A DNA stretch of 64,000 nt. It comes from a phage. The position numbers were made by a program, and so were the translations under genes. The DNA is taken from the sequence record PZ166176.1; one strand, given 5' to 3'. Below the pieces are notes generated by a model, which saw nothing but the letters and a program-made list of their open reading frames with translations, was not told where the DNA came from and did not search any database. Shown here piece by piece: positions 1,620-55,751 of the stretch. Numbering within the stretch: position 1 is the stretch's first letter; each line of letters opens with the position of its first letter.

Positions 1620-1801
1620 CTTGCTCTACGAGCCTCTTATGAAGCTTATGTTATAGGCTATACTATTGCTACCTGTTTAAGCAAGGTTTTTGCACACAGA
1701 AAATAATTTTTAATAAAACTCTTGACTTTTGTGTTCGAAGTATGCTACCCTAGAAATCTATTAACGAGCGCAGCGAGTTAAGGTTTTAGGTTGTTGATGT
1801 A

Positions 1802-1833
1802 GTACTCTGTACTCAAGTACTGTACTCCGTACT
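1802..1833. repeat. array of five GTACT repeats within 32 bp
   Basis: GTACT at 1802, 1809, 1817, 1822 and 1829; further GTAC sites at 1888, 1907, 1911, 1989 and 1994 flank AT-rich tracts. Confidence 0.8.
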
Positions 1834-1835
1834 AG

Positions 1836-1882
1836 ATTAATAATTATTAAATATTAATAATAAATAATTATTAGATCTAACA
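1836..1882. repeat. AT-rich tract with internal palindromes (ttaataattattaa)
   Basis: Nearly pure A/T for about 45 bp between the GTAC clusters; a second AT-rich tract lies at 1921-1965 and a perfect 14-bp palindrome TGATCTATAGATCA at 1968-1981. Confidence 0.8.
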
Positions 1883-1966
1883 AACAGGTACAGTGTATCA
1901 GAACTGGTACGTACAGATCAACTTCTATCAATTAAAAATAAAATAATAAATTATTATAAATAATAC

Positions 1967-1995
1967 TTGATCTATAGATCAGTATGAAGTACAGT
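1967..1995 (+). promoter_or_regulatory. sigma70-like promoter for the rightward genes (-35 TTGATC, 17-nt spacer, -10 TACAGT), overlapping the palindrome TGATCTATAGATCA
   Basis: Hexamers and spacing read directly; AT-rich UP-like region upstream; the palindrome in the spacer looks like an operator. Confidence 0.4.
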
Positions 1996-2027
1996 ACGGA
2001 ACATCTTAACAAGAATGGAGGTGTGCA

Positions 2028-10048: not shown

Positions 10049-10528
10049 ATGGAACTCAATAAAGATACACTGTGGGAACTCTTCAAAACCTTCGCTGGTT
10101 TTAAAGAGAATTCTGAATCCCAACAAGATTCTATACCATCTCAAAAACCTGAAACTCTAGTCAAACAAAATAAATTTGATGAAGAAAAGATGCAGGTTAT
10201 TGAGGTCTTGTATTGTCCACCTGAAGAAGACGATCTCCACGGAGAGCGCATGTCTGATTTGGAAATCAGGAAGATGGTTGACAACTTCAATGAGAATATT
10301 ACCAATATTAGCGGTAATCTTGGTCACATGAAGAACACCGATAAGTTTGCTCCAATTAAAGCTTGGGTAAATGAAGTCGATTGTTACATTGGTGACGAAC
10401 TCGTTGTGGAAGGAACTCCCCTCGTTAAAATCCAATTCAACGACCCTGAATTATATCAAGCTCGTAAAGACGGCGTTCTTAAAGGTTTGAGTATAGGCGC
10501 AATGGGCGTTAAAGTCAAGAAGGACTAA
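10049..10528 (+). CDS. head morphogenesis protein, function unknown (159 aa)
   Basis: ORF between the portal and scaffold-like genes. Confidence 0.4.
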   Translation: MELNKDTLWELFKTFAGFKENSESQQDSIPSQKPETLVKQNKFDEEKMQVIEVLYCPPEEDDLHGERMSDLEIRKMVDNFNENITNISGNLGHMKNTDKFAPIKAWVNEVDCYIGDELVVEGTPLVKIQFNDPELYQARKDGVLKGLSIGAMGVKVKKD

Positions 10529-47122: not shown

Positions 47123-50100
47123 CTAGTGACAGGACGCCCAGGAATTACCCACATCATACCCAGCAGTAAGCTGAACATTAAGATTGTAAAATTCTCCAGC
47201 CTTAGTAACAGCTAAAGCAGCAAGTTCACCTGCCCGACTATAAGCTGTAAACCATCCACCTTTGGGAGATTCATGAATGTTAGCCCAAATTTGCCCTGTC
47301 TCTTTTTCCTTATTATGCTTCCATTCTTCGACTTTAGCAAGGCATTCTTTATCAATTTTCTTTTGTTCTTCAGGATCGTCTACTTTCTTCCAACCTAATG
47401 ATTCAGGTGAAAACCATTTAAATTCTACAAGGTTACGAGAAACTTCAAGCTGGGCTTCATCGTGATATGCAATCATTTGTTGCACGAAATCTTTATTCTT
47501 CCAGTCATCTTTAAAGAAGTCAACACTTAGCCCTTCTTCTTCGATCATGTCATCATAAATAACCATTGCACGTTTAGCACAGATAACCCCACCGCTTTGG
47601 AACAGAGAGTTAAGAATCGCGTGAGCAGAACGAGTAGGAACCTTACGACCGTCAATACCCAAAACATATTGTTTACCAGTCTTAACCCAGAAATCGTTTA
47701 AACGTTCTTTAAGACGCGCCAATGGGAATGCAGCTTCCCAGAAAGCATCGAACACCAATTGCCCTGTAAACTTGTCGCTACCAATTGTTTTAGCAACCTT
47801 GTCGGCTTGTGCACCATAGGTAATACCATACTTAACAGATTTAGCAGGACTACGTTCAAATTTACGTCCAATAGTTTCAGTGATACGTTTTGCCATCATT
47901 GTGTGAACATCATTAGGTTTCTCTAACAACAGAGCGTTACAATATTCGTGTGGCTCCGGCTCGTACCGCCAACAGTTTCCTGTGATGGTAATGCAGTCTT
48001 TCTGACGCATGACCCACGTACCAAGTTCTGTTTGTGGACACCAAACATCCTCTACACCCCACTCTTCAATAGTCAAACTTTGAACAGGAATGTGAGAGCG
48101 GTTAGTCAATGTTGCCACTTTTACTTTCTGCTCTTTTGTATTGAAAGCTACAGAGATATTGCCTCCATGCACCAGGTACGAGGCAGTTAAAGCTGCTTCA
48201 AAAAGTTCACCTGGGTTCTGCGCCCAACGCCAAACAGGTTTTTGTTTATGTTCGTGCCAGTAACCATCTGCAATCAAGAAACCTTCCAAGAAAGCTACAC
48301 GCTCGGCATGAGACATATTAACTACACGTTCTACCCACGGAACATCCCATTTACCTTGTTGAACAGAAGTTAAACTATTTACCTGATCTTGTTCCATGTT
48401 AAATGGAGCATTACAAATAATGTTATCTCCTGTGCAAAGCTCGGCAGTTGTTCTGACTTTAGGCACATAAGTATTCCCTTTACTACGGGTATTAACATAC
48501 CAACGGTGATCTGCTGTTGCACGGTAAGTGTGTGATTTCCCTTTAATCTCAAACGTCTTACTATTTTTATAGAAGACCTTACCTTTTACTTTAGTCCATT
48601 CTTTCAGACCTGTTTCAGCATTGTACCCTAAAATCTCATCCCCTTCCTTCAGGTCGTGATATCCTACCCAACCTTTACGAGTCAAAGCTTGAGCATCCAT
48701 CGGCACACAGTAATGCGATTCAATTTTTGCTTCCAAAGAGTCGAAGTCGTAGCCAATCTGGAAGTATTTAGGAACTTCTACACCAAACAAGTTACGCATC
48801 TCCCATCCAAACAAAGATGTGACACGAGGAATATTAGCTACAGATCTATGCTTCATACGAGAGGTTGCAGCATCACATGTAGCGGCTGGGGTAGGAATAC
48901 GCCCATCCGCCCTTACTGCGGCTAAGAAACCTTTATCGTATTCTTGATCTTCTTCATCTTCTTCCCAATCGGCACCGCCACCTAAAATAGAGTTCCTACG
49001 ATGCTTATACGTTAAGTATTCTACAATCTGTGTAGCATAAGGAAACTTCTCACCCAAAGCTTGCAGGTTAGGACAAATTTCTTTTTCCTGACCTTTGGTA
49101 AAACACGGGTTAGTCAATACTTTAAGACCGCGACCTTTACCTTTTGCTATACGCTCTTGAATCTTCCTTTCCAGGGTTTCCGGTGTGCACTCCAGATGAT
49201 CACAACGATCCTGACAAAAATTAGAAGATAGGGTTTGCTCAACGTAAGCTCGAATACCTTTCTGAAGTTCTTCCTCGCTCTTTTTAATTTTGGTGCCAGA
49301 TTTAAGCGTCAAGTCTTTATCTTTATATTCAGACGGTACCCAACCTAATCCTACGAGCCAGTTTTTAATATGGGTTGTATCGTTCAATGTTGCAGGGATG
49401 TTAGGATCACATAGAGGCTCATCTGCTGCAACTGGTAGTTTCCACTCTTTCCCCAACATAACTAACCACCAATCGCCATCCCTCTCTTCCAAATGACCAT
49501 CATGTTTCTTAGCAAAATTGATCATATGGTTAGTTGGCTCTAAGTTCTTTTTAATTTGCAACTTAGGTGGAATAAAAGCCTTAAGATAACCTTTTGTTGC
49601 TGGTTTAGGTGGCAAAATAGGCTCAACGAGTAAACGAAGACGCTCCATTTCTGCATCCAAAAAAGCAAGGTTCTCTTCTGCTTGCTTCATGTTAAAAGCA
49701 AACCCACGGTGTTCCTGGCGTGTAATAATGTCTGCTACACGTTGTTCAAGTTCAAACGGACCTTCCCATTTATCATAATCACCCCATTCTTCCATAAGGT
49801 AATTATATACGCTCGTATTGGCTTTGTTGTCATAGATACAGTAATAAAGCATGTCCGCAGCAAAAGTCTTAAATCGATCCTCTTCTGGAATCTCTTTACG
49901 GAAATCTATTTTTACATCACCACCTGCCTTTCGAGAAAGTGCTGCCAAACTATGTCCTGATTTGCCCTCAATCTTTCGATCTGGGTTTAACACTTTACTC
50001 AAAATCAAGGAGTCAATAAGTTTTACCTTATTTTTGCCCCACGTGTTATATTTAACACTGTAATCTAAGCCATAAAACAGTTTTGTAGCCAACCAGTCGT

Positions 50101-50455
50101 AGTTGATACCGTTGTGAGCCACAGCCATTTCAACCAGATATTCAGGCTTATCTTTAAAATAACCTTCATGATTAATAAAGTCTGGGAAATCTTTTAGTTG
50201 AAAATGTGTGTAATCTTGCGCCACATACTCTTTAAGAACATATGTGTATTTGCCATCTGACTCTTCATAAGGACGCCCATCAAAGATGTATTTAGGACCA
50301 TCGTGGAAAGCTACTATTTCTCCTGTTTCATGGTTCTCTAAGACAATACAGTGCATTTGAAATGTGTCTTTGAGACGATAAGGACTAGCTAAATAATCAA
50401 TAGTGTCATTATTCAACAATCCGTTTGCTTCAATATCCCATGTAAACTTACTCAC
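47123..50455 (-). CDS. family A DNA polymerase with 3'-5' exonuclease domain, interrupted by an intein
   Basis: Exo motif DIEANGL; motif A region GYDFDSLEAKIESHY; motif B ERSPAKSVKYGITYG; motif C HDEAQLEV; a 245-aa insertion separates motifs A and B. Confidence 0.85.
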   Translation of the reverse strand: MSKFTWDIEANGLLNNDTIDYLASPYRLKDTFQMHCIVLENHETGEIVAFHDGPKYIFDGRPYEESDGKYTYVLKEYVAQDYTHFQLKDFPDFINHEGYFKDKPEYLVEMAVAHNGINYDWLATKLFYGLDYSVKYNTWGKNKVKLIDSLILSKVLNPDRKIEGKSGHSLAALSRKAGGDVKIDFRKEIPEEDRFKTFAADMLYYCIYDNKANTSVYNYLMEEWGDYDKWEGPFELEQRVADIITRQEHRGFAFNMKQAEENLAFLDAEMERLRLLVEPILPPKPATKGYLKAFIPPKLQIKKNLEPTNHMINFAKKHDGHLEERDGDWWLVMLGKEWKLPVAADEPLCDPNIPATLNDTTHIKNWLVGLGWVPSEYKDKDLTLKSGTKIKKSEEELQKGIRAYVEQTLSSNFCQDRCDHLECTPETLERKIQERIAKGKGRGLKVLTNPCFTKGQEKEICPNLQALGEKFPYATQIVEYLTYKHRRNSILGGGADWEEDEEDQEYDKGFLAAVRADGRIPTPAATCDAATSRMKHRSVANIPRVTSLFGWEMRNLFGVEVPKYFQIGYDFDSLEAKIESHYCVPMDAQALTRKGWVGYHDLKEGDEILGYNAETGLKEWTKVKGKVFYKNSKTFEIKGKSHTYRATADHRWYVNTRSKGNTYVPKVRTTAELCTGDNIICNAPFNMEQDQVNSLTSVQQGKWDVPWVERVVNMSHAERVAFLEGFLIADGYWHEHKQKPVWRWAQNPGELFEAALTASYLVHGGNISVAFNTKEQKVKVATLTNRSHIPVQSLTIEEWGVEDVWCPQTELGTWVMRQKDCITITGNCWRYEPEPHEYCNALLLEKPNDVHTMMAKRITETIGRKFERSPAKSVKYGITYGAQADKVAKTIGSDKFTGQLVFDAFWEAAFPLARLKERLNDFWVKTGKQYVLGIDGRKVPTRSAHAILNSLFQSGGVICAKRAMVIYDDMIEEEGLSVDFFKDDWKNKDFVQQMIAYHDEAQLEVSRNLVEFKWFSPESLGWKKVDDPEEQKKIDKECLAKVEEWKHNKEKETGQIWANIHESPKGGWFTAYSRAGELAALAVTKAGEFYNLNVQLTAGYDVGNSWASCH
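47975..48709 (-). mobile_element. intein (about 245 aa) with LAGLIDADG-like motif, inserted after polymerase motif A
   Basis: Starts CVPMDAQALTRKGW, contains ERVAFLEGFLIADGYW, ends ...DCITITGN followed by Cys; the termini resemble those of the terminase intein. Confidence 0.6.
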
Positions 50456-51249
50456 TATTCCTCCTTTCTAATGTTCTCCAGAACCCACTGAAGTTCTTTT
50501 AAACTTAAACTTCTTACTCCCGCAGTTTTACTAGCTTCAGCTTTAAGTAACGGGTAAGCCTCAATGATACGCGTTTTAAGATCAGAAGTCAAGGCTTTTA
50601 AAAAATAGGTAGATGCTTCAGATAAAGAATCTTCTTCTGATAACACTTTACCTGCACTTGCTCCCGCTCTCCTAACAGCTATATCGTAGTCTTTACTGTT
50701 ACCTAATACGAACAGTCGATTCTCTCCTAAAACAACGGGAGAACGCTTCTCGTTGCGTTTAATCCATACTTGGAATACACAAGGAACATCCCAAGGTTCT
50801 CCATGAAGAATAAAAGATCCTTTTGGACATTCTTCTTCGTAAAGAAGATGCATATGGGGATTTAGTTTGTGTGCAAAAAAGATTTTTTGAAATGTGCGAG
50901 GCAAGATAAAACAAATACCACCTTCGTTATCCAGCATTTCAGCACAATGGTTAAAGAATTTAATGGCAAGACTAGCATTTTTTCCAAATGGAGGATTACC
51001 GACAAAAGCAGTTACACTACCAACAGACTCAACAGATTGAGCTAAAAAATCTGCCTCAATACAATCTTCAAACTTAGGGTCAATATCAAAAGAAGTTATG
51101 TTTTTAAAACAAGAAGAGAAAGCTCCTTCTCCCGCAGATGGTTCTACGTAGTTAGCTTCCTCTCCAAAAATTTCTTTGATCTTATCACATAAGAACCCCG
51201 CATAAGCGGGGTTAGTGTAATATTGATCAAGTGTGTTCAACTTGCTCAA
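50455..51249 (-). CDS. DNA methyltransferase (amino-methyltransferase, NPPF motif), no cognate nuclease seen
   Basis: SAM-binding motif EPSAGEGAF and catalytic motif VGNPPFG; upstream DQYYTNP motif. Confidence 0.6.
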   Translation of the reverse strand: MSKLNTLDQYYTNPAYAGFLCDKIKEIFGEEANYVEPSAGEGAFSSCFKNITSFDIDPKFEDCIEADFLAQSVESVGSVTAFVGNPPFGKNASLAIKFFNHCAEMLDNEGGICFILPRTFQKIFFAHKLNPHMHLLYEEECPKGSFILHGEPWDVPCVFQVWIKRNEKRSPVVLGENRLFVLGNSKDYDIAVRRAGASAGKVLSEEDSLSEASTYFLKALTSDLKTRIIEAYPLLKAEASKTAGVRSLSLKELQWVLENIRKEE

Positions 51250-51258
51250 TAGTCCTCC

Positions 51259-51690
51259 TTAGTTGTTAGCGAACTCAATAGTGAGGTCAACTTTACCATC
51301 ATCAGAAATAACCATGTTTTTAGTATTTTTAAAGATGATATCTACTTTACCTTCACTTACACGACAAAATGCAACACCATCTGCAACTTTATCGATATAA
51401 TATTTGTAAGAAAGAATACCCACTTTACTACGACCAGCACCTTTTGTGAAAGAAGGGCTTACATCGAAACGGAAACCTTTAGAAGAAACAACACGGTAAG
51501 AACGTCCAGTTGGGATATGTTCAATAACAGAAACATTGTTCTCAACAACTTTTACAGCAAACTCTTCAGGATGATCCTCAACAATCATATGTGGGATGGC
51601 AAATGCCAACGCTTGTTTGTGTTTAATAACACCAGCACCCAGAGCACCAGCAGCTTTAACTTTTGCATTCAGATCGATTGTCATACGCAT
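51259..51690 (-). CDS. hypothetical protein (143 aa)
   Basis: ORF with RBS; between the primase-helicase and methyltransferase genes. Confidence 0.5.
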   Translation of the reverse strand: MRMTIDLNAKVKAAGALGAGVIKHKQALAFAIPHMIVEDHPEEFAVKVVENNVSVIEHIPTGRSYRVVSSKGFRFDVSPSFTKGAGRSKVGILSYKYYIDKVADGVAFCRVSEGKVDIIFKNTKNMVISDDGKVDLTIEFANN

Positions 51691-51760
51691 TTTTACTTCT
51701 CCTCTTGTTTGGTTGATGAGACAAGTATAAGTCCCTTCCGCAAAGTTGTCAACAGGTATT

Positions 51761-51784
51761 TTTAATAAAAGGGCCGAAGCCCTT
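51761..51784 (-). terminator. rho-independent terminator at the 3' end of the primase-helicase gene (minus strand)
   Basis: Hairpin AAGGGC-TTCG-GCCCTT followed by TTTATTAAAAAT on the minus strand; overlaps the stop codon. Confidence 0.6.
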
Positions 51785-53561
51785 AATAGTTGCTATCCGT
51801 AGGCAAATTAGCAGGATTGTTGAAATACTGCTCTTTGTCATGCAGAGTTGCAGTTCTAATGTCATAGTAAAACTGCCCTGCCGGACCAGTTTCCGAGAAC
51901 TCACGGTTTTTTAGGATAAAGCAATGAGTCGTATTGCGTTCTACAGGGTCTTCAGCGGCTTTATCTCGTTCCAAAGCCAAGGTAATACCAGCACCTTTAG
52001 CCAAGAAACTACTACCCATTGCATCGTCCTCTGTTAAGTGTTCATTGCCACCATTAGCCGATTTCTTAACGTGTGAGATGACGATAATAGTTATAGCATA
52101 CTCTTTCATGATGCGCTTCAACCATGTTGCTAACTCTTCCTGGGCTTGAACATCCATACCAGAAAGCAAATCAGAATAAGGGTCGATAACAAGAATTGTT
52201 ACTCCAAAATAGATGATCATCTCCAAAACTTTTTCTTTGATAGACTCCACATCTGCTCCACGATCATCACACACATAAAAACGTGGTGATCCATCTTCTC
52301 TTTCGTAAAAATCTAGGATTTTTTCTTTATTCTCTTCCAAGATTTGAAATTTCTCTTCCGGTGTTTTCCTGTGCAGAGGAATATGCAGGAACGAGGACAA
52401 CAGGTTACGAGAGTATTTCTTATAAGTTGCTTCCAAGGACAGAATGCCGAGGGTATGTTCTGGGTGCGCAACAATAATATGTTTTGTGATCTCGTTCACC
52501 ATCAAAGTTTTACCGATACTGGTCTTTGCTAGGATGACTGTAATCTCTTCCTCTACTAAACCACCACCCAGCATATTTGCAGCAACACGCATAAAAGGGG
52601 GCAAGGTAATCATCTTGGATTCCAAGCATTCTAATGCAGCTTCATACAAGACATTAGAAGCATAAACACCTGCTGGGGTGTATAGACGAGCACTCCAAAA
52701 AGCCTTTACGAAATCCTTTGCACGACCTTCTTCCAGATACTGATTGGCATCCTTAAGATCCATCTGCATACGGTAGACTTTGTTACGAGGTAGCACCTTA
52801 ACAATATTTTCAAATGCCTCATTACCTGCTTTGTCATTATCCATGCAAACAATAATCTTCTTAAATTTTTCAAAGAAAGGATATTGTGCCTGAACTTGTT
52901 TATACATACTGGTTTCACCAGTTGTGCCACTAACTACTGCTGGAAGTTCATATTTGTTGTCCAAGTTTTCAGACAGCATTTGATAAGCTGCCAGAGCATC
53001 GTGTTCACCACCTGTAATTACCACAGTATGAGAACGGTCTGCAAAACGAATTTGTCCAAAAAGATCTACATCTTTACCTACTTGACCAATAGGTTTACTG
53101 AAATCTTTAGGATGAATACGACGCTTAAAACCAACCAATTCTTTACCGATGGTAGTTGGATATAAACAACTTTCTACTACCATCTGATCCCCTTCCTGAC
53201 GGTATTCATAACGAACACCATAGAAAGATGAAACTTTTTCTTTAATGCCTCGATAACCACGTGGGTTGGCTGATGTTTCTTGAACAATTTTACGATGAAT
53301 CTGTTTATTAAATTCCGAACCCACAATCTCCTCCTCTTCTTCTAAAACTTCACCATTTTCTCGTAACCATTCTACGCTAGGAATAGTGTATTCACACGCA
53401 AAGCACTTAGCACCTTTATGCTCTCCATTAGAATCTAATCCATAAACCATCAGGTTATTACGAGAGCGATCCTTGCCATTTTTCATGCAGCGCGGACAAC
53501 CTGTATGCCCTTCCTTGCTAAGATCAACATCAAATCCATATTTAGTTATAATGTGCGACAC
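51783..53561 (-). CDS. bifunctional DNA primase-helicase (T7 gp4-like)
   Basis: N-terminal zinc finger (CPRC...CFAC), Toprim region (VVITGGEHD, IIVCMDNDKAG), helicase Walker A (AKTSIGKT) and Walker B (LVIDPYSDL). Confidence 0.8.
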   Translation of the reverse strand: MSHIITKYGFDVDLSKEGHTGCPRCMKNGKDRSRNNLMVYGLDSNGEHKGAKCFACEYTIPSVEWLRENGEVLEEEEEIVGSEFNKQIHRKIVQETSANPRGYRGIKEKVSSFYGVRYEYRQEGDQMVVESCLYPTTIGKELVGFKRRIHPKDFSKPIGQVGKDVDLFGQIRFADRSHTVVITGGEHDALAAYQMLSENLDNKYELPAVVSGTTGETSMYKQVQAQYPFFEKFKKIIVCMDNDKAGNEAFENIVKVLPRNKVYRMQMDLKDANQYLEEGRAKDFVKAFWSARLYTPAGVYASNVLYEAALECLESKMITLPPFMRVAANMLGGGLVEEEITVILAKTSIGKTLMVNEITKHIIVAHPEHTLGILSLEATYKKYSRNLLSSFLHIPLHRKTPEEKFQILEENKEKILDFYEREDGSPRFYVCDDRGADVESIKEKVLEMIIYFGVTILVIDPYSDLLSGMDVQAQEELATWLKRIMKEYAITIIVISHVKKSANGGNEHLTEDDAMGSSFLAKGAGITLALERDKAAEDPVERNTTHCFILKNREFSETGPAGQFYYDIRTATLHDKEQYFNNPANLPTDSNY

Positions 53562-53573
53562 TTTGTTCTCCTG

Positions 53574-53852
53574 TTAAAATGGTTCGTTAGTCTCCATCAT
53601 ATATTCTGCTTCTAGTTCTTCCATATGCTTTCTAAATTGGAAAGCAATTTCTGCTACAGTTACATTTAAATCTTTTTCAAAAACTTCTGTAGAGCCTTCA
53701 TAAAAACGAATACCGTCAATTAAAAGCCCTCCGTGGTAATCCCAATCACTTTCACGAGAAAGCGGGTTAGGCTCTTCATAATAGTAATCCACCTCCACAA
53801 CTAAGGCTTTCCCGTTACGAGTGGTGTATTCAAAATCAAAAGTGTTAATCAT
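53574..53852 (-). CDS. hypothetical protein (92 aa)
   Basis: ORF; acidic. Confidence 0.45.
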   Translation of the reverse strand: MINTFDFEYTTRNGKALVVEVDYYYEEPNPLSRESDWDYHGGLLIDGIRFYEGSTEVFEKDLNVTVAEIAFQFRKHMEELEAEYMMETNEPF

Positions 53853-54796
53853 TATAGCTCCTCAAATAAAAGTCTACGACGCTCATTCAACACATCAATG
53901 TGATAATGAGTCCTGACATACTTAGCTAATGCTAATCCTTTCTCCATGCAAACATCGGGAGCACTTAATAAGTATTCCGTAATATCTTTCCACTCGGAAG
54001 GTGTTTCAGCAAAGAATAACAAATCTTTAAACTCTTGTGTATGATAATTCTCACGAGGAGAACAGATCAAAGGTAAACCCTTAGCACCTGCCTCAAGAAT
54101 TTTAAGATTGCTTTTTGCATTATTAAACACGTTATCAATCAATGGCGCAAGACTGATTTGATGACCATCGTAAGATTCCATGTAGTTGGCATATGGTCTT
54201 ACACCTTCATAAACACAAGTTGGTGCTACATTTTCTCTGATTACAGACCATTCACGACTACTTAAAACTTCAGAATCCCTACGAAAACCACATATTGTAA
54301 GATCTTTACCAAAATCGGGCAAGATAGCCAAATCTTGTTTATGTGTTTCACTTCCAGCCCAGACTAATGGAGTTTTGGAGTAGCGATCACGGGTCAACAC
54401 AAATTGACCTTCATCATAAGGAAGTCCATTAGGGATTATGTGCACATTATCATTGTATTGTGAAAGTTCAACTTGCAAGGCAGGTGTCGTAGTTGTAACA
54501 AGATCACTGTGCTCTAAAAACCATTTTAAATGTTCACGAATACCTGATTCAAAAATACCTTCTAACATGTGTCCTTTTGGAATAACTAAAGAGTCATCCA
54601 AATCCATAACCATTTTAAAGCCTAGGTTTTTAAGGGCTAAAAAGCCCTCTTTACCTTTTGTTGGCACTCCGTTAAAAACGAAAACGTTGTATTTAGGTTG
54701 TGAAGAGAACTGCCTTGAGTAAGGCAGCACTACCCTATGGAAATCGCAGACACTATAATTGATTCCGTTACGATTGTCAAGAATTATTTGTCCCAT
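53852..54796 (-). CDS. glycosyltransferase-like protein (paralog 1)
   Basis: Paralogous to 54804-55751 (shared blocks VWAG, KSNLKILEAGAKGxPxxCS, VRTHY); the blocks resemble nucleotide-sugar-binding GT-B enzymes (inference). Confidence 0.4.
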   Translation of the reverse strand: MGQIILDNRNGINYSVCDFHRVVLPYSRQFSSQPKYNVFVFNGVPTKGKEGFLALKNLGFKMVMDLDDSLVIPKGHMLEGIFESGIREHLKWFLEHSDLVTTTTPALQVELSQYNDNVHIIPNGLPYDEGQFVLTRDRYSKTPLVWAGSETHKQDLAILPDFGKDLTICGFRRDSEVLSSREWSVIRENVAPTCVYEGVRPYANYMESYDGHQISLAPLIDNVFNNAKSNLKILEAGAKGLPLICSPRENYHTQEFKDLLFFAETPSEWKDITEYLLSAPDVCMEKGLALAKYVRTHYHIDVLNERRRLLFEEL

Positions 54797-54803
54797 ACTT
54801 CAC

Positions 54804-55751
54804 CTACAAACTTTCAATAACCTGGCGTCGCAACTCATTTGCATCTGCCAGATTATAATGTGTTCGAACATGTTCAGCCAAGAACAAGCCACGATCTTCC
54901 CGATAGTTTGGATTGCGAAGAAGCTTAACAATTTCGTAATGCCATTCTGCTTTGTTCTCTGCGTAAGCAACAGCACGAGCATCTACAGGGTTAAAATAAG
55001 GTAATACCTTAGAACAAACAATCGGAATACCCTTTGCTCCAGCTTCTAGGATTTTGAGATTACTTTTACAATTATTAAAATCATTATCTACCAAAGGAGC
55101 TATAGCAATAGCATGACTTTCGTAAACACTCATGTAATTATCTAAATCTTTTACAGCAGCTTTATATTTAGCATTTGGTAAATTTCTGCGAATCTTAATC
55201 CACTCTTGTCCCGTGATGCTCTGCGATGCTTCATATCCCGCAATAGTAAGAAGTTCATCATCGAAAGTATTAGAGACTAGTCGTAAATCGGGTTCGTGAC
55301 TAGCACCGCCAGCCCATACAACAGGGGTACCGGATGAACGATCATTTGACAAAGTGAATTGTCCACTATCAAAAGGAAGTGCATTTCGGATCACAACAAC
55401 ATTCCTATTTAAGTGACGGATCTTATATGCCAAGTATTCCGTAGTCACAATAACCACATCAGCAAGCTTAACCATAGCCACAATAGCATGAGTGTTTGAC
55501 TCGTATAAACTTGCTAAATAATGCTCTGGATTAAGTTGGTAAAAATCATCTAAATCTACAACAACCTTAACACCTTGACGTTTCAAAGATAAAACGTATT
55601 CTGCACCTTTAGAGTGGATACGGTTAAACACAACAATATCTTTCTTAGGTTGAAAATTATTGTTGTTAAATGGCATAACAATACGATGATAGTCACAACC
55701 GCTATGAGGTTTTGCATCAATTTTTAGTTTAGACCATTTTTTATTTGACAT
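54804..55751 (-). CDS. glycosyltransferase-like protein (paralog 2)
   Basis: Tandem paralog of 53852-54796 with the same conserved blocks. Confidence 0.4.
   Translation of the reverse strand: MSNKKWSKLKIDAKPHSGCDYHRIVMPFNNNNFQPKKDIVVFNRIHSKGAEYVLSLKRQGVKVVVDLDDFYQLNPEHYLASLYESNTHAIVAMVKLADVVIVTTEYLAYKIRHLNRNVVVIRNALPFDSGQFTLSNDRSSGTPVVWAGGASHEPDLRLVSNTFDDELLTIAGYEASQSITGQEWIKIRRNLPNAKYKAAVKDLDNYMSVYESHAIAIAPLVDNDFNNCKSNLKILEAGAKGIPIVCSKVLPYFNPVDARAVAYAENKAEWHYEIVKLLRNPNYREDRGLFLAEHVRTHYNLADANELRRQVIESL

What the first reader, a model, noticed from the sequence alone, without database searches (positions are those of the whole stretch)
50455..51249. Orphan DNA amino-methyltransferase adjacent to the polymerase
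The motifs EPSAGEGAF and NPPF identify an N6-adenine or N4-cytosine DNA methyltransferase with no partner endonuclease nearby, consistent with protective self-methylation against host restriction. Together with the glycosyltransferase cluster it points to layered DNA protection.
Basis: partly seen in the sequence, partly recalled or inferred. Interest (0 to 1): 0.35.

Follow-up and report, generated by a model that had tools for sequence, protein, structure and literature searches.

The report
Phage GTAC methylase with restriction-like partner
The gene is a real DNA adenine methyltransferase of a phAPEC8-like E. coli phage, but it is probably not an orphan: it most likely marks the sequence GTAC and sits beside a small, very diverged relative of the restriction enzyme that partners this methylase family elsewhere.

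Summary
The ORF at 50455..51249 (minus strand, 264 aa) is real and carries the motifs at the stated places. It has a TTG start with an AGGAGG ribosome-binding site, and its stop overlaps the DNA polymerase start. The window is a Phapecoctavirus, where this gene is already annotated "putative DNA N6-adenine methyltransferase". Fold, motif order and PADLOC type II methyltransferase models (E=3.6e-36) support a gamma-class m6A DNA methyltransferase.

Three things are new:
- **Target is probably GTAC.** Some family members sit next to R.PabI-type (GTAC) restriction genes. GTAC is the one tetranucleotide depleted in 68 virus contigs that carry the family (median observed/expected 0.48, against 0.84 in 64 random viral contigs; p=2e-13). 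In this window it is 65 observed against 200 expected.
- **The gene is probably not an orphan.** The adjacent 143-aa ORF (51259..51690) is a remote homologue (hhalign 95%, E=2e-8) of the small restriction enzyme that partners this family. The two genes are adjacent in about nine phage lineages.
- **Relatives with the 143-aa gene but no methylase have no GTAC at all** (0 observed, 89 expected, in 20 kb).

Whether the partner cuts DNA is unresolved, because the expected catalytic residues are not conserved. Nothing links the glycosyltransferases to DNA protection.

The parts
50455..51249 (-). 264-aa gamma-class SAM-dependent N6-adenine DNA methyltransferase. N-terminal motif LDQYYTNP, motif I EPSAGEGAF (residues 36-44), FDIDP, catalytic motif IV NPPF (85-88), and a conserved C-terminal target-recognition region (VPCVFQVW, RRAGASAGK, TAGVRSLS). 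Inferred target GTAC.
   Evidence: ORF and motifs. Family invariants. AlphaFold2 model pLDDT 94. Foldseek matches to m6A DNA MTases. PADLOC MTase_II PDLC03255 E=3.6e-36. GTAC inference.
51259..51690 (-). 143-aa ORF (phrog_9938, 'unknown function'). It is a remote homologue of the small type II restriction-enzyme family that partners this methyltransferase family, and the candidate R-like half of the module. Its stop TAA lies 9 nt before the methyltransferase TTG start.
   Evidence: hhalign of A4 against A5: probability 95.3%, E=2.4e-8, 104 columns. Adjacent to the MTase homologue in rV5 (order reversed), L093, L096/097, L305, L306, L309/310, L313 and L314. PHROG match. No Pfam or PADLOC hit. 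The restriction family's D86, [DE]98-x-K100 are not conserved.
51724..51752 (-). Sigma-70-like promoter TTGACA-17 nt-TATACT (11 of 12 matches), just upstream of the 143-aa ORF.
   Evidence: Consensus scan and sequence read. This is a consensus match only; the region held 5 promoter-like sites against 4.5 expected by chance.
51769..51784 (-). GC-rich hairpin AAGGGC-TTCG-GCCCTT followed by a T/A run. It overlaps the last two bases of the primase/helicase stop codon (51783-51785) and is terminator-like, setting the module apart from the upstream gene.
   Evidence: Read directly. The terminator scan did not call it.
47123..50455 (-). Family A DNA polymerase (1110 aa, with a 245-aa intein-like insertion). 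Its GTG start overlaps the methyltransferase stop, so it is the downstream gene of the same transcription unit. Context, not part of the module proper.
1801..1999 (.). Cluster of 10 of the window's 65 GTAC sites, in a divergent intergenic region. It holds 5 copies of GTACT, then a 40-bp A+T palindromic tract, then GGTACAG, GGTACGTACAG and AAGTACAGTACGG. It is a candidate origin or regulatory region and a possible concentrated substrate of the methyltransferase. The link to the methyltransferase is speculative.
   Evidence: (p about 6e-10). Conserved at 95-99% identity in 65 Phapecoctavirus records. An analogous GTACT/GATC/A+T/iteron region lies next to rV5's annotated replication-initiator gene.

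Best explanation
The ORF encodes a gamma-class, SAM-dependent N6-adenine DNA methyltransferase. Its family most likely recognises GTAC and makes GTm6AC, as M.PabI, M.HpyAXII and M.CviQI do.

In this phage it is not a free-standing orphan. It is the M half of a compact two-gene module whose other half is the upstream 143-aa gene, a very diverged relative of the small type II restriction enzyme that partners this family in other viruses and bacteria.

The module sits between the primase/helicase and the DNA polymerase, behind its own sigma-70-like promoter. It would therefore be made with the replication proteins and would methylate GTAC sites on replicating phage DNA.

That mark would protect phage DNA from GTAC-directed attack. 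The attacker would be the module's own partner (if it still cuts or otherwise harms unmethylated GTAC DNA, such as host or competitor DNA) and any GTAC-specific host restriction system. Genome-wide loss of GTAC is the second, complementary protection.

*Shown:* the gene, its motifs, fold class, family membership, gene linkage and GTAC statistics. *Inferred:* GTAC specificity and any activity of the 143-aa protein.
For: **DNA m6A methyltransferase.**
- Motifs and invariant residues.
- Confident model, pLDDT 94.
- Top fold matches are M.BseCI, CamA, HsdM and M.TaqI.
- PADLOC MTase_II matches at E=3.6e-36 over near full length.
- All family members hit the same four MTase_II models.

**The family belongs to restriction-modification systems.**
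- In 16 of 79 bacterial loci a conserved ~215-aa gene starts 4-8 nt inside the MTase stop (REase_II PDLC03460, E=5e-10).
- Other loci carry REase_II PDLC03550 (2.5e-14) or Pfam RE_R_Pab1 (8.3e-16, above the curated cut-off).
- 37 of 80 viral loci have one of these partners adjacent.

**GTAC.**
- All characterised PabI-family enzymes act on GTAC, with GTm6AC methyltransferases (PMC10273834, PMC2588503).
- The C-terminal domain is conserved whichever partner type is present.
- GTAC observed/expected has median 0.48 in 68 carrier contigs against 0.84 in 64 random viral contigs. Mann-Whitney p=2.4e-13, GC-matched p=1.2e-11.
- GTAC is the top discriminator among all 136 tetramer classes.
- Depletion is graded: 0.30 and 0.39 with a restriction partner adjacent, 0.54 without, 0.84 in controls.
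- In the window, 65 observed against 199.6 expected, the most depleted palindromic tetramer.

**Partner.**
- hhalign probability 95.3%, E=2.4e-8.
- The pair is adjacent in about nine lineages, with the order swapped in rV5.
- Relatives that have the 143-aa gene but no methyltransferase have no GTAC: 0 observed against 89.4, 80.1, 55.4, 42.9, 27.9 and 16.4 expected.
- phi92 has neither gene and has 439 GTAC sites, not depleted.
Against: - No experiment or methylome for this protein or its close relatives was found in the searchable literature.
- GTAC specificity rests on indirect evidence. Homology to M.PabI or M.HpyAXII themselves could not be tested, because no sequence was at hand.
- Bacterial loci with the PDLC03460-type partner show only mild GTAC depletion (0.89).
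- The 143-aa family has no invariant acidic residue. Its invariant residues are P33, S80, K83, G84 and R87.
- The restriction family's D86, [DE]98-x-K100 and E67 align with V55, K/R66, V68 and P33. A classical PD-(D/E)XK nuclease activity is therefore doubtful.
- The model of the 143-aa protein is poor (pLDDT 58) and gives no significant fold match.
- Only two lineages have the 143-aa gene without the methyltransferase, and only 5-20 kb of each was seen. A methyltransferase elsewhere in those genomes is not excluded.
Confidence: 0.5

Rival explanations
1. Functionally orphan anti-restriction methyltransferase. The enzyme methylates GTAC only to shield phage DNA from GTAC-specific host restriction systems. 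The 143-aa neighbour is then an inactivated relic of the ancestral restriction gene, either with an unrelated present role or acting as a dominant-negative or site-shielding anti-restriction factor. GTAC loss reflects the same host pressure.
For: - The catalytic D...(D/E)xK of the related restriction family is not conserved in the 143-aa family.
- No homologue of the other two partner families is in the window.
- Carriers with no recognisable partner are still GTAC-depleted (0.54 against 0.84).
- Orphan phage methyltransferases derived from restriction-modification systems are common (established knowledge; Murphy et al. 2013, as cited in PMC12210895).
Against: - A dead relic would not stay a 120-150-aa ORF at 24-59% identity, glued to the methyltransferase in about nine lineages and through one order inversion.
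- If the 143-aa protein were protective or inert, relatives that keep it but lack the methyltransferase would not need to remove every GTAC (0 observed, 89 expected).
Confidence: 0.3
2. Domesticated restriction-modification pair working as an epigenetic switch. The methyltransferase marks the few retained GTAC sites, above all the 10-site cluster at 1801-1999 in a candidate origin or divergent-promoter region. The nuclease-dead 143-aa protein reads their methylation state to time replication, transcription or packaging. This would be analogous to Dam with SeqA/MutH at GATC clusters, or to Dam at the P1 pac site.
For: - Ten GTAC sites lie within 200 bp of a genome that otherwise avoids GTAC (p about 6e-10), flanking A+T tracts and GATC sites.
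- In rV5, four GTAC sites within 60 bp lie beside GATC sites, an A+T tract and four iterons, next to the annotated replication-initiator gene.
- The restriction-like partner lacks the classical catalytic residues.
Against: - The rV5 cluster is not significant genome-wide (5 sites in 250 bp).
- No such cluster was seen in other carrier loci.
- A reader protein does not explain the total absence of GTAC in relatives without the methyltransferase.
- The cluster may simply be iterons that happen to contain GTACT.
Confidence: 0.1
3. Not a DNA enzyme: an RNA N6-adenosine methyltransferase of the METTL5/Ta1320 type that modifies host or phage RNA.
For: - The best sequence-profile matches among solved structures are Ta1320 (E=2.7e-5) and METTL5 (E=5e-4), ahead of M.TaqI (E=0.5).
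- JGI names some homologues 'predicted RNA methylase'.
- TrmN and KsgA also appear among the fold matches.
Against: - Matches to type II DNA methyltransferase models are about 30 orders of magnitude stronger and cover the C-terminal domain.
- Dozens of homologues overlap restriction-enzyme genes.
- The family tracks depletion of a DNA tetranucleotide.
- The METTL5 match covers only the shared catalytic core, residues 4-127.
Confidence: 0.03

Closest known systems
PabI-family GTAC restriction-modification systems (M.PabI/R.PabI, M.HpyAXII/R.HpyAXII, R.CcoLI)
   Same: - Gamma-type N6-adenine methyltransferases with a C-terminal recognition domain, tightly linked to a restriction gene (PMC4615327).
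- Two bacterial members of the present family sit directly upstream of an R.PabI homologue (Pfam RE_R_Pab1, 58.6 bits against a cut-off of 25).
- GTAC avoidance co-exists with the methyltransferase in Helicobacter and Campylobacter (PMC10273834), as it does here.
- The catalytic Asn is at nearly the same position (N87 in M.HpyAXII, N85 here).
   Different: - M.HpyAXII is 331 aa against 264 aa here.
- Direct sequence homology to M.PabI or M.HpyAXII was not tested.
- The partner in this phage is not a PabI-type glycosylase but a 143-aa relative of a different small restriction family.
- The host here is a virulent phage, not a cellular chromosome.
M.TaqI, M.BseCI and CamA (solved gamma-class m6A DNA methyltransferases)
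   Same: - Same motif order and motif wording: TP-containing N-terminal helix, EPxxGxGxF, (D/E)IDP, NPP(Y/F).
- Top Foldseek matches at E=5e-8 to 5e-7.
   Different: - TM-score is only 0.45-0.57 on the query.
- The Pfam Eco57I model scores below threshold (15.6 against 25.3 bits).
- The C-terminal recognition domain is much smaller and has no sequence match to theirs.
Chlorovirus restriction-modification pairs such as M.CviQI/R.CviQI (GTAC)
   Same: - A lytic virus carrying a site-specific methyltransferase and nuclease pair. M.CviQI methylates GTAC at adenine (PMC2588503).
- Many giant-virus metagenome contigs carry 31-41% identical homologues of this methyltransferase, several with an adjacent restriction-type gene.
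- From my own knowledge: chlorovirus restriction enzymes help degrade host DNA.
   Different: - Membership of M.CviQI in this family was not tested.
- In the phage, the nuclease status of the partner is doubtful.
Orphan phage methyltransferases (T-even or T1 Dam, Drexlerviridae Dam/Dcm)
   Same: Phage-encoded, made during replication, and thought to shield DNA from restriction.
   Different: - Those belong to other classes (alpha or beta; D12 or N6_N4 families), target GATC and similar sites, and have no restriction-like neighbour.
- Here a restriction-enzyme homologue is genetically linked.
- BASEL found no simple link between methyltransferase genes and restriction resistance in Drexlerviridae (PMC8594841).
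Dam-MutH-SeqA of E. coli (a restriction-modification-derived epigenetic system)
   Same: Resemblance only: a methyltransferase plus a restriction-enzyme-fold protein that reads the same tetranucleotide, with site clusters at an origin.
   Different: No homology.

Membership tests
Gamma-class N6-adenine DNA methyltransferase | Linear motif order: SAM-binding motif I (FxGxG-like) before catalytic motif IV (NPPY/F), with the recognition domain C-terminal | tested here: met
   EPSAGEGAF at residues 36-44, NPPF at 85-88, and a conserved C-terminal domain at 140-260.
Gamma-class N6-adenine DNA methyltransferase | Rossmann-like methyltransferase fold closest to solved m6A DNA methyltransferases | tested here: met
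   Model pLDDT 94. Foldseek top matches are M.BseCI, CamA, HsdM and M.TaqI at E=5e-8 to 5e-7, but TM-score is only 0.45-0.57, and RNA methyltransferases (TrmN, KsgA) follow closely.
Gamma-class N6-adenine DNA methyltransferase | Reaches the curated score of a Pfam or NCBIfam DNA-methyltransferase model | tested here: not met
   Pfam Eco57I scores 15.6 bits against a cut-off of 25.3. NCBIfam gives no hit. Some homologues carry a precomputed PF26055, which is absent from the local Pfam copy.
Gamma-class N6-adenine DNA methyltransferase | Transfers methyl to adenine N6 in DNA | not testable with these tools
   Needs a methylome or an enzyme assay.
Type II restriction-modification methyltransferase (REBASE-derived PADLOC MTase_II models) | Significant near full-length match to a type II MTase model | tested here: met
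   PDLC03255 at E=3.6e-36, residues 21-254 against profile positions 15-250 of 269. Also PDLC03256, 03274 and 03280. The same four models match all tested relatives.
Type II restriction-modification methyltransferase (REBASE-derived PADLOC MTase_II models) | Family members genetically coupled to restriction-enzyme genes | tested here: met
   16 of 79 bacterial loci carry a PDLC03460-type gene, 3 carry a PDLC03550-type gene and 2 carry an R.PabI-type gene. Among viral loci, 17 and 20 carry the first two types.
GTAC-specific (GTm6AC) methyltransferases: M.PabI, M.HpyAXII, M.CviQI | Recognition sequence GTAC | tested here: inconclusive
   Indirect only. R.PabI-type partners, unique and graded GTAC depletion in carriers, and a conserved recognition domain. 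No methylation data.
GTAC-specific (GTm6AC) methyltransferases: M.PabI, M.HpyAXII, M.CviQI | Sequence homology to a characterised GTAC methyltransferase | not tested
Orphan (solitary) methyltransferase | No cognate restriction-type gene linked to it | tested here: not met
   The adjacent 143-aa ORF is homologous to the PDLC03550-type restriction family (hhalign 95.3%, E=2.4e-8) and is co-inherited with the methyltransferase.
PD-(D/E)XK type II restriction endonuclease (for the 143-aa partner) | Homology to a restriction-enzyme family | tested here: met
   hhalign of A4 against A5: 95.3%, E=2.4e-8, with the shared motif Y-x13-PSxxxGxGR. The comparison with the PDLC03460-type family is not significant (probability 1.1%).
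PD-(D/E)XK type II restriction endonuclease (for the 143-aa partner) | Conserved catalytic acidic residues and lysine, D...(D/E)xK | tested here: not met
   The restriction family's D86, [DE]98 and K100 align with V55, K/R66 and V68. No invariant D or E occurs in 21 family members; E38 and D/E50 are only 71-76% conserved.
PD-(D/E)XK type II restriction endonuclease (for the 143-aa partner) | Sequence-specific DNA cleavage blocked by the cognate methylation | not testable with these tools
   The only indirect pointer is 0 GTAC in relatives that lack the methyltransferase.
METTL5/Ta1320-type rRNA m6A methyltransferase | Specific sequence relationship beyond the shared catalytic core | tested here: inconclusive
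   Profile matches at E=2.7e-5 and 5e-4 cover only residues 4-127. They are far weaker than the DNA methyltransferase models.

The most novel reading that the evidence does not exclude
A virulent coliphage carries, inside its replication operon, a miniature GTAC-directed nuclease-and-methylase module. The 143-aa protein would be a new, very small and non-canonical restriction-type enzyme (or base-excision enzyme) that attacks unmethylated GTAC DNA of the host or of competing phages. The phage's own genome escapes through GTm6AC methylation. In sister lineages that lost the methylase, it escapes by removing every GTAC site. The retained GTAC cluster at 1801-1999 would then be a methylation-dependent control point.
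Probability: 0.3. Interest if true: 0.7.

Novelty: new variant of a known kind. Interest (0 to 1): 0.45.

Why it matters
As originally written, an orphan methyltransferase in a phage, the finding is routine and already annotated.

What the sequence comparisons add is a concrete prediction that one afternoon at the bench could test: virion DNA should resist RsaI. They also add a previously unannotated gene family (phrog_9938, 'unknown function') that is genetically tied to the methyltransferase and descends from a restriction enzyme.

If the small protein is active, phAPEC8- and rV5-like phages carry their own restriction-type weapon, with two alternative self-protection strategies: methylation, or total loss of the site. 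These phages are widely isolated and proposed for therapy.

That would bear on host-DNA degradation, exclusion of competing phages, the reading of phage host range, and the engineering of these phages, because cloned or synthetic DNA containing GTAC could be attacked.

If the protein is inactive, the module is a clean example of a restriction-modification pair being taken apart and reused by a virus.

Tried and rejected
- **Pfam and NCBIfam on the methyltransferase.** No hit above threshold. The PF26055 label seen on some homologues could not be resolved: it is absent from the local Pfam copy and from the literature.
- **RNA methyltransferase reading** (METTL5/Ta1320). Considered and rejected on gene context and the strength of the PADLOC matches.
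- **The ~215-aa PDLC03460-type partner.** No Pfam or PDB relatives, no copy in the window, and no significant similarity to the 143-aa ORF.
- **Structure route for the 143-aa ORF.** The alignment was shallow, the model poor (pLDDT 58) and the fold search uninformative. Sequence-profile searches against PDB were empty.
- **GTAC depletion in bacterial loci with the PDLC03460-type partner.** Only 0.89, not informative.
- **Idea that intein DNA explains the GTAC sites in the polymerase gene as a recent arrival.** Dropped, because phi92 has the same insertion.
- **GTAC clusters as a general feature of carriers.** Not found: none in 68 carrier loci or in phi92, and rV5's is weak.
- **Literature searches** for methylation or restriction-digest data on rV5, phAPEC8, Vequintavirus or Phapecoctavirus. 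Nothing found.
- **The search for related loci with the full 21-member alignment.** Failed because the alignment was too divergent. A 9-member subset worked.
- **Metagenome scan.** It added no further lineage with the 143-aa gene but no methyltransferase.
Full report
**1. The observation**

- It starts at a TTG four bases after an AGGAGG ribosome-binding site.
- That start lies nine bases after the TAA stop of the preceding ORF.
- Its TAG stop overlaps the GTG start of the 1110-aa DNA polymerase as TAGTG (read directly).
- EPSAGEGAF begins at residue 36 and NPPF at residue 85. Both fall on invariant columns of an 83-sequence alignment of homologues (E36, G40, G42, N85, P86, P87).

The window is a Phapecoctavirus (phAPEC8-like, Stephanstirmvirinae).
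- The protein is 97-99.6% identical in 65 phage records and about 54% identical in rV5-like Vequintavirus.
- GenBank already calls it 'putative DNA N6-adenine methyltransferase' in many of these records.
- The gene and its adjacency to the polymerase are therefore confirmed, and the basic annotation is not new.

**2. What kind of enzyme**

Curated models are silent: Pfam Eco57I scores 15.6 bits against a cut-off of 25.3, NCBIfam gives nothing, and the PHROG family is 'unknown function'.

An AlphaFold2 model built on the family alignment is confident (pLDDT 94, pTM 0.89).
- Its best PDB matches are gamma-class N6-adenine DNA methyltransferases: M.BseCI, CamA, a type I HsdM, and M.TaqI, at E=5e-8 to 5e-7.
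- TM-scores are only 0.45-0.57, and a few RNA methyltransferases follow close behind.

A sequence profile against PDB instead ranks Ta1320 and the rRNA methyltransferase METTL5 first (E=2.7e-5 and 5e-4), so I took the DNA-or-RNA question seriously. Two results settle it for DNA:
- The protein matches REBASE-derived PADLOC type II methyltransferase models at E=3.6e-36 over almost its whole length, including the C-terminal domain.
- Its relatives are physically coupled to restriction-enzyme genes (section 3).

**3. The family lives in restriction-modification systems**

A scan of one genome per prokaryotic species found 351 relatives. I clustered the neighbours of 79 loci.
- In 16 loci a conserved ~215-aa gene begins 4-8 nt inside the methyltransferase stop codon. 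It has invariant H-G-x-x-F-E ... D ... S-[IV]-K and matches PADLOC REase_II PDLC03460 (E=5e-10).
- Three loci have a ~160-aa neighbour matching REase_II PDLC03550 (E=2.5e-14).
- Two loci have a neighbour matching Pfam RE_R_Pab1 above its curated threshold (E=8.3e-16).

In IMG/VR there are 451 viral relatives, many on giant-virus metagenome contigs. Of the 80 loci kept, 17 carry the first partner type and 20 the second, always adjacent.

All tested family members hit the same four methyltransferase models. They also share the C-terminal motifs VPCxFQxW, RR(V/A)GxxAG and T(A/V)GxRS(L/I)(S/A)K, whichever partner they have.

**4. The likely target is GTAC**

Every characterised PabI-family restriction enzyme (R.PabI, R.HpyAXII, R.CcoLI) acts on GTAC. 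Their methyltransferases make GTm6AC and are gamma-type with a C-terminal recognition domain (PMC4615327, PMC10273834, PMC2588503). That gave a hypothesis, which I tested on composition.

*In the window:*
- GTAC is the most under-represented of the 16 palindromic tetramers: 65 observed against 199.6 expected from trinucleotides, a ratio of 0.33.

*Across 68 viral contigs of at least 8 kb that carry a homologue:*
- The median GTAC ratio is 0.48.
- GTAC is the single most depleted palindrome in 22 contigs and among the top three in 45.

*In 64 random viral contigs, fetched with an arbitrary 15-mer and none carrying a homologue:*
- The median is 0.84.
- GTAC is never the most depleted palindrome, and its ratio never falls below 0.5.

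*Statistics and grading:*
- Mann-Whitney p=2.4e-13; GC-matched p=1.2e-11.
- Among all 136 tetramer classes, GTAC is by far the best discriminator (p=6e-13). The next classes have p≥3e-7 and differ only slightly in median ratio.
- The median ratio is 0.30 with an adjacent PDLC03550-type gene, 0.39 with a PDLC03460-type gene, 0.54 with no recognised partner and 0.84 in controls.

This is what one expects if the family's site is GTAC. It remains an inference; no methylation data exist.

**5. The gene is probably not an orphan**

The 143-aa ORF directly upstream (51259..51690) has no Pfam or PADLOC hit and belongs to phrog_9938, 'unknown function'.

*Linkage to the methyltransferase:*

| Locus or lineage | Position of the 143-aa homologue relative to the MTase homologue |
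|---|---|
| rV5 (gp097) | Downstream and overlapping |
| IMG/VR L093, L096/097, L305, L306, L309/310 | Immediately upstream |
| Metagenome L313, L314, L315 | Immediately upstream |

- That makes about nine lineages, at 24-59% protein identity and with one inversion of gene order. This is the signature of a functional pair.
- The family is rare: 21 cluster representatives among 1.8 billion proteins.

*Homology to a restriction-enzyme family:*
- Profile-profile comparison links it to the PDLC03550-type restriction family with 95.3% probability (E=2.4e-8, 104 columns).
- The two share Y-x13-P-S-x3-G-x-G-R.
- Comparison with the other partner family is not significant.

*Comparative pattern:*

| Lineage | 143-aa gene | Methyltransferase | GTAC, observed / expected |
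|---|---|---|---|
| phi92 | absent | absent | 439 sites in 148.6 kb, not depleted |
| This window | present | present | 65 / 199.6 |
| rV5 | present | present | ratios 0.42-0.70 |
| L299-L303 (primase/helicase 66% identical) | present | none found | 0 / 89.4, 80.1, 55.4, 42.9, 27.9 |
| L298 (primase/helicase 77% identical) | present | none found | 0 / 16.4 |

- In phi92 an unrelated gene (gp160) fills the same slot between primase/helicase and polymerase.
- A genome that must contain no GTAC unless it also encodes the GTAC methyltransferase is most simply explained by the 143-aa protein being harmful to unmethylated GTAC DNA.

*The counter-evidence is real:*
- The restriction family's invariant D86, [DE]98-x-K100 and E67 align with V55, K/R66, V68 and P33.
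- The 143-aa family has no invariant acidic residue. Its invariant residues are P33, S80, K83, G84 and R87.
- Its structure model is poor and matches nothing significant.
- I therefore cannot say whether it cuts, excises, merely binds, or does something else.

**6. Anatomy and mechanism**

- A GC hairpin plus T run follows the primase/helicase stop.
- A near-consensus TTGACA-17-TATACT lies 34 nt upstream of the 143-aa ORF.
- The 143-aa ORF, the methyltransferase and the polymerase then follow with 9-nt and -1-nt junctions.

The module would thus be expressed with the replication proteins. The mechanism I think most likely is this. The methyltransferase converts GTAC to GTm6AC on replicating phage DNA, so that packaged genomes are immune to GTAC-directed attack. 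That attack could come from the module's own partner, acting on host or competitor DNA, and from host GTAC systems.

Protection is narrow, not general. The BASEL study describes Vequintavirinae and relatives, the group of rV5-like phages that carry the 54% identical copy, as 'exceptionally susceptible' to EcoKI, EcoCFT_I, EcoRI, EcoRV, EcoP1_I and EcoCFT_II (PMC8594841). None of those systems reads GTAC.

**7. The 'layered protection' claim**

- The two adjacent glycosyltransferase-like ORFs give only weak GT-B Pfam hits.
- They belong to a four-gene cluster that phi92 also has, without this methyltransferase.
- BASEL notes that a putative glycosylation machinery in phi92-like phages does not confer restriction resistance.
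- Nothing here links them to DNA.

The layer that is visible in the sequence is site avoidance.
- Besides GTAC, seven palindromic hexamers with 4.5-12.4 expected copies are absent from the 64 kb: CAGCTG, CCATGG, CTGCAG, GCATGC, GGATCC, TCCGGA and TGGCCA.
- phi92 avoids twenty hexamers, including GGTACC, AGTACT and CGTACG (0-1 copies against 9-23 expected).
- Those three are not specially avoided in this window (3, 9 and 2 copies). That fits GTAC-core sites being covered by methylation here. The contrast is not specific, however: AAGCTT behaves the same way.

**8. A side observation that may connect**

- Ten of the 65 GTAC sites lie at 1802-1994, inside the 480-bp divergent intergenic region 1547-2027.
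- The layout is five GTACT copies, a 40-bp A+T palindrome, then GGTACAG, GGTACGTACAG and AAGTACAGTACGG, with four GATC sites (p about 6e-10).
- rV5 has a smaller version next to its annotated replication-initiator gene: GGTACT, TGTACTTTAGTACCATAAGTACTAGATCT, an A+T tract and four 18-bp iterons. It is not significant genome-wide.
- This may be an origin whose GTAC sites are a concentrated substrate for the module. That is speculation.

**9. Comparison and novelty**

The methyltransferase works like, and on present evidence belongs with, gamma-class type II m6A enzymes of GTAC systems. Its identity as a phage methyltransferase is already annotated.

The following were not found in the searchable literature:
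- the GTAC assignment;
- the restriction-derived partner gene;
- the either-methylate-or-purge pattern among relatives.

REBASE could not be consulted and may already predict the specificity. I rate this a new variant of a known kind, of moderate interest. It is ordinary if the partner is a relic, and considerably more interesting if it is an active, non-canonical GTAC-directed enzyme carried by a virulent phage.

Noticed in passing
window 1801-1999 (intergenic region 1547-2027): Ten GTAC sites lie within 200 bp of a genome that otherwise avoids GTAC. The layout is 5 copies of GTACT, a 40-bp pure A+T palindromic tract, GGTACAG, GGTACGTACAG and AAGTACAGTACGG, plus four GATC sites, between divergently transcribed gene blocks. 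This is a candidate origin or regulatory region. The region is 95-99% conserved in 65 Phapecoctavirus records, and anhysbys annotates a repeat_region there.
   Followed up: partly
window 47975-48709 (residues 583/584-827 of the DNA polymerase ORF 47123-50455, minus strand): The polymerase has a 245-aa insertion relative to the 860-aa PolA of a related phage (L299). The insertion begins with Cys and ends ...TGN|C, which is intein-like. Pfam reports only DNA_pol_A. The phi92 polymerase has the same insertion. Three of the five GTAC sites in the polymerase gene lie inside it.
   Followed up: partly
whole window: Strong restriction-site avoidance. CAGCTG, CCATGG, CTGCAG, GCATGC, GGATCC, TCCGGA and TGGCCA are absent (4.5-12.4 copies expected each), and CGATCG occurs once. 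phi92 avoids a larger, partly different set of 20 hexamers, including AAGCTT (0 against 46 expected), which this window does not avoid (41 against 50).
   Followed up: partly
L299:10475-10813 (also L300-L303): In the relatives that lack the methyltransferase and have no GTAC, an unrelated 112-aa ORF with no PHROG hit occupies the slot between the 143-aa gene homologue and the polymerase. Whether it replaces the methyltransferase functionally, for example as an inhibitor of the 143-aa protein, is unknown.
   Followed up: no
window 10049-10525 (+): A second gene that relatives annotate as 'DNA methyltransferase'. It is 82% identical to phi92 gp121 (159 aa), which lies between the portal and scaffold genes in phi92. 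Given its size and position, the annotation looks doubtful. phi92 and rV5 each list several further methyltransferases.
   Followed up: no
window 53852-55751 (-) and beyond: The glycosyltransferase-like ORFs (314 and 315 aa) score at or below the Pfam thresholds for GT-B families. They belong to a four-gene cluster shared with phi92 (gp163-166). Their substrate is unknown, and no link to DNA was found.
   Followed up: partly
L006:7001-8404 (Poseidonibacter ostreae) and 15 other bacterial loci: A methyltransferase homologue plus an overlapping ~215-aa gene with invariant HGxxFE...D...S-[IV]-K (PADLOC REase_II PDLC03460; phrog_6892 'unknown function'). This is an apparently uncharacterised type II restriction enzyme family with no Pfam or PDB relatives.
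   Followed up: partly
IMG/VR loci L107, L110, L113, L120, L121, L124, L127, L130, L144, L150 and others: Many 31-41% identical homologues of the methyltransferase lie on giant-virus (GVMAG) contigs, several with an adjacent restriction-type gene and GTAC ratios down to 0.06-0.18.
   Followed up: partly
phage records MG065647, MG065655, MG065666, MG065672, MG065682: Records labelled 'Campylobacter phage' of about 135-141 kb carry the rV5-type copy of this gene at the same identity as the E. coli rV5-like phages. The host label may not reflect what these genomes are.
   Followed up: no
L295:15020-15260 (rV5 record about 65020-65260): Four near-identical 18-bp iterons (TGTCCGTATCACGGACAG), an A+T tract, and GTACT and GATC sites lie beside the gene annotated 'replication initiation protein' (gp075). 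This is a textbook origin layout that is not annotated as such.
   Followed up: no
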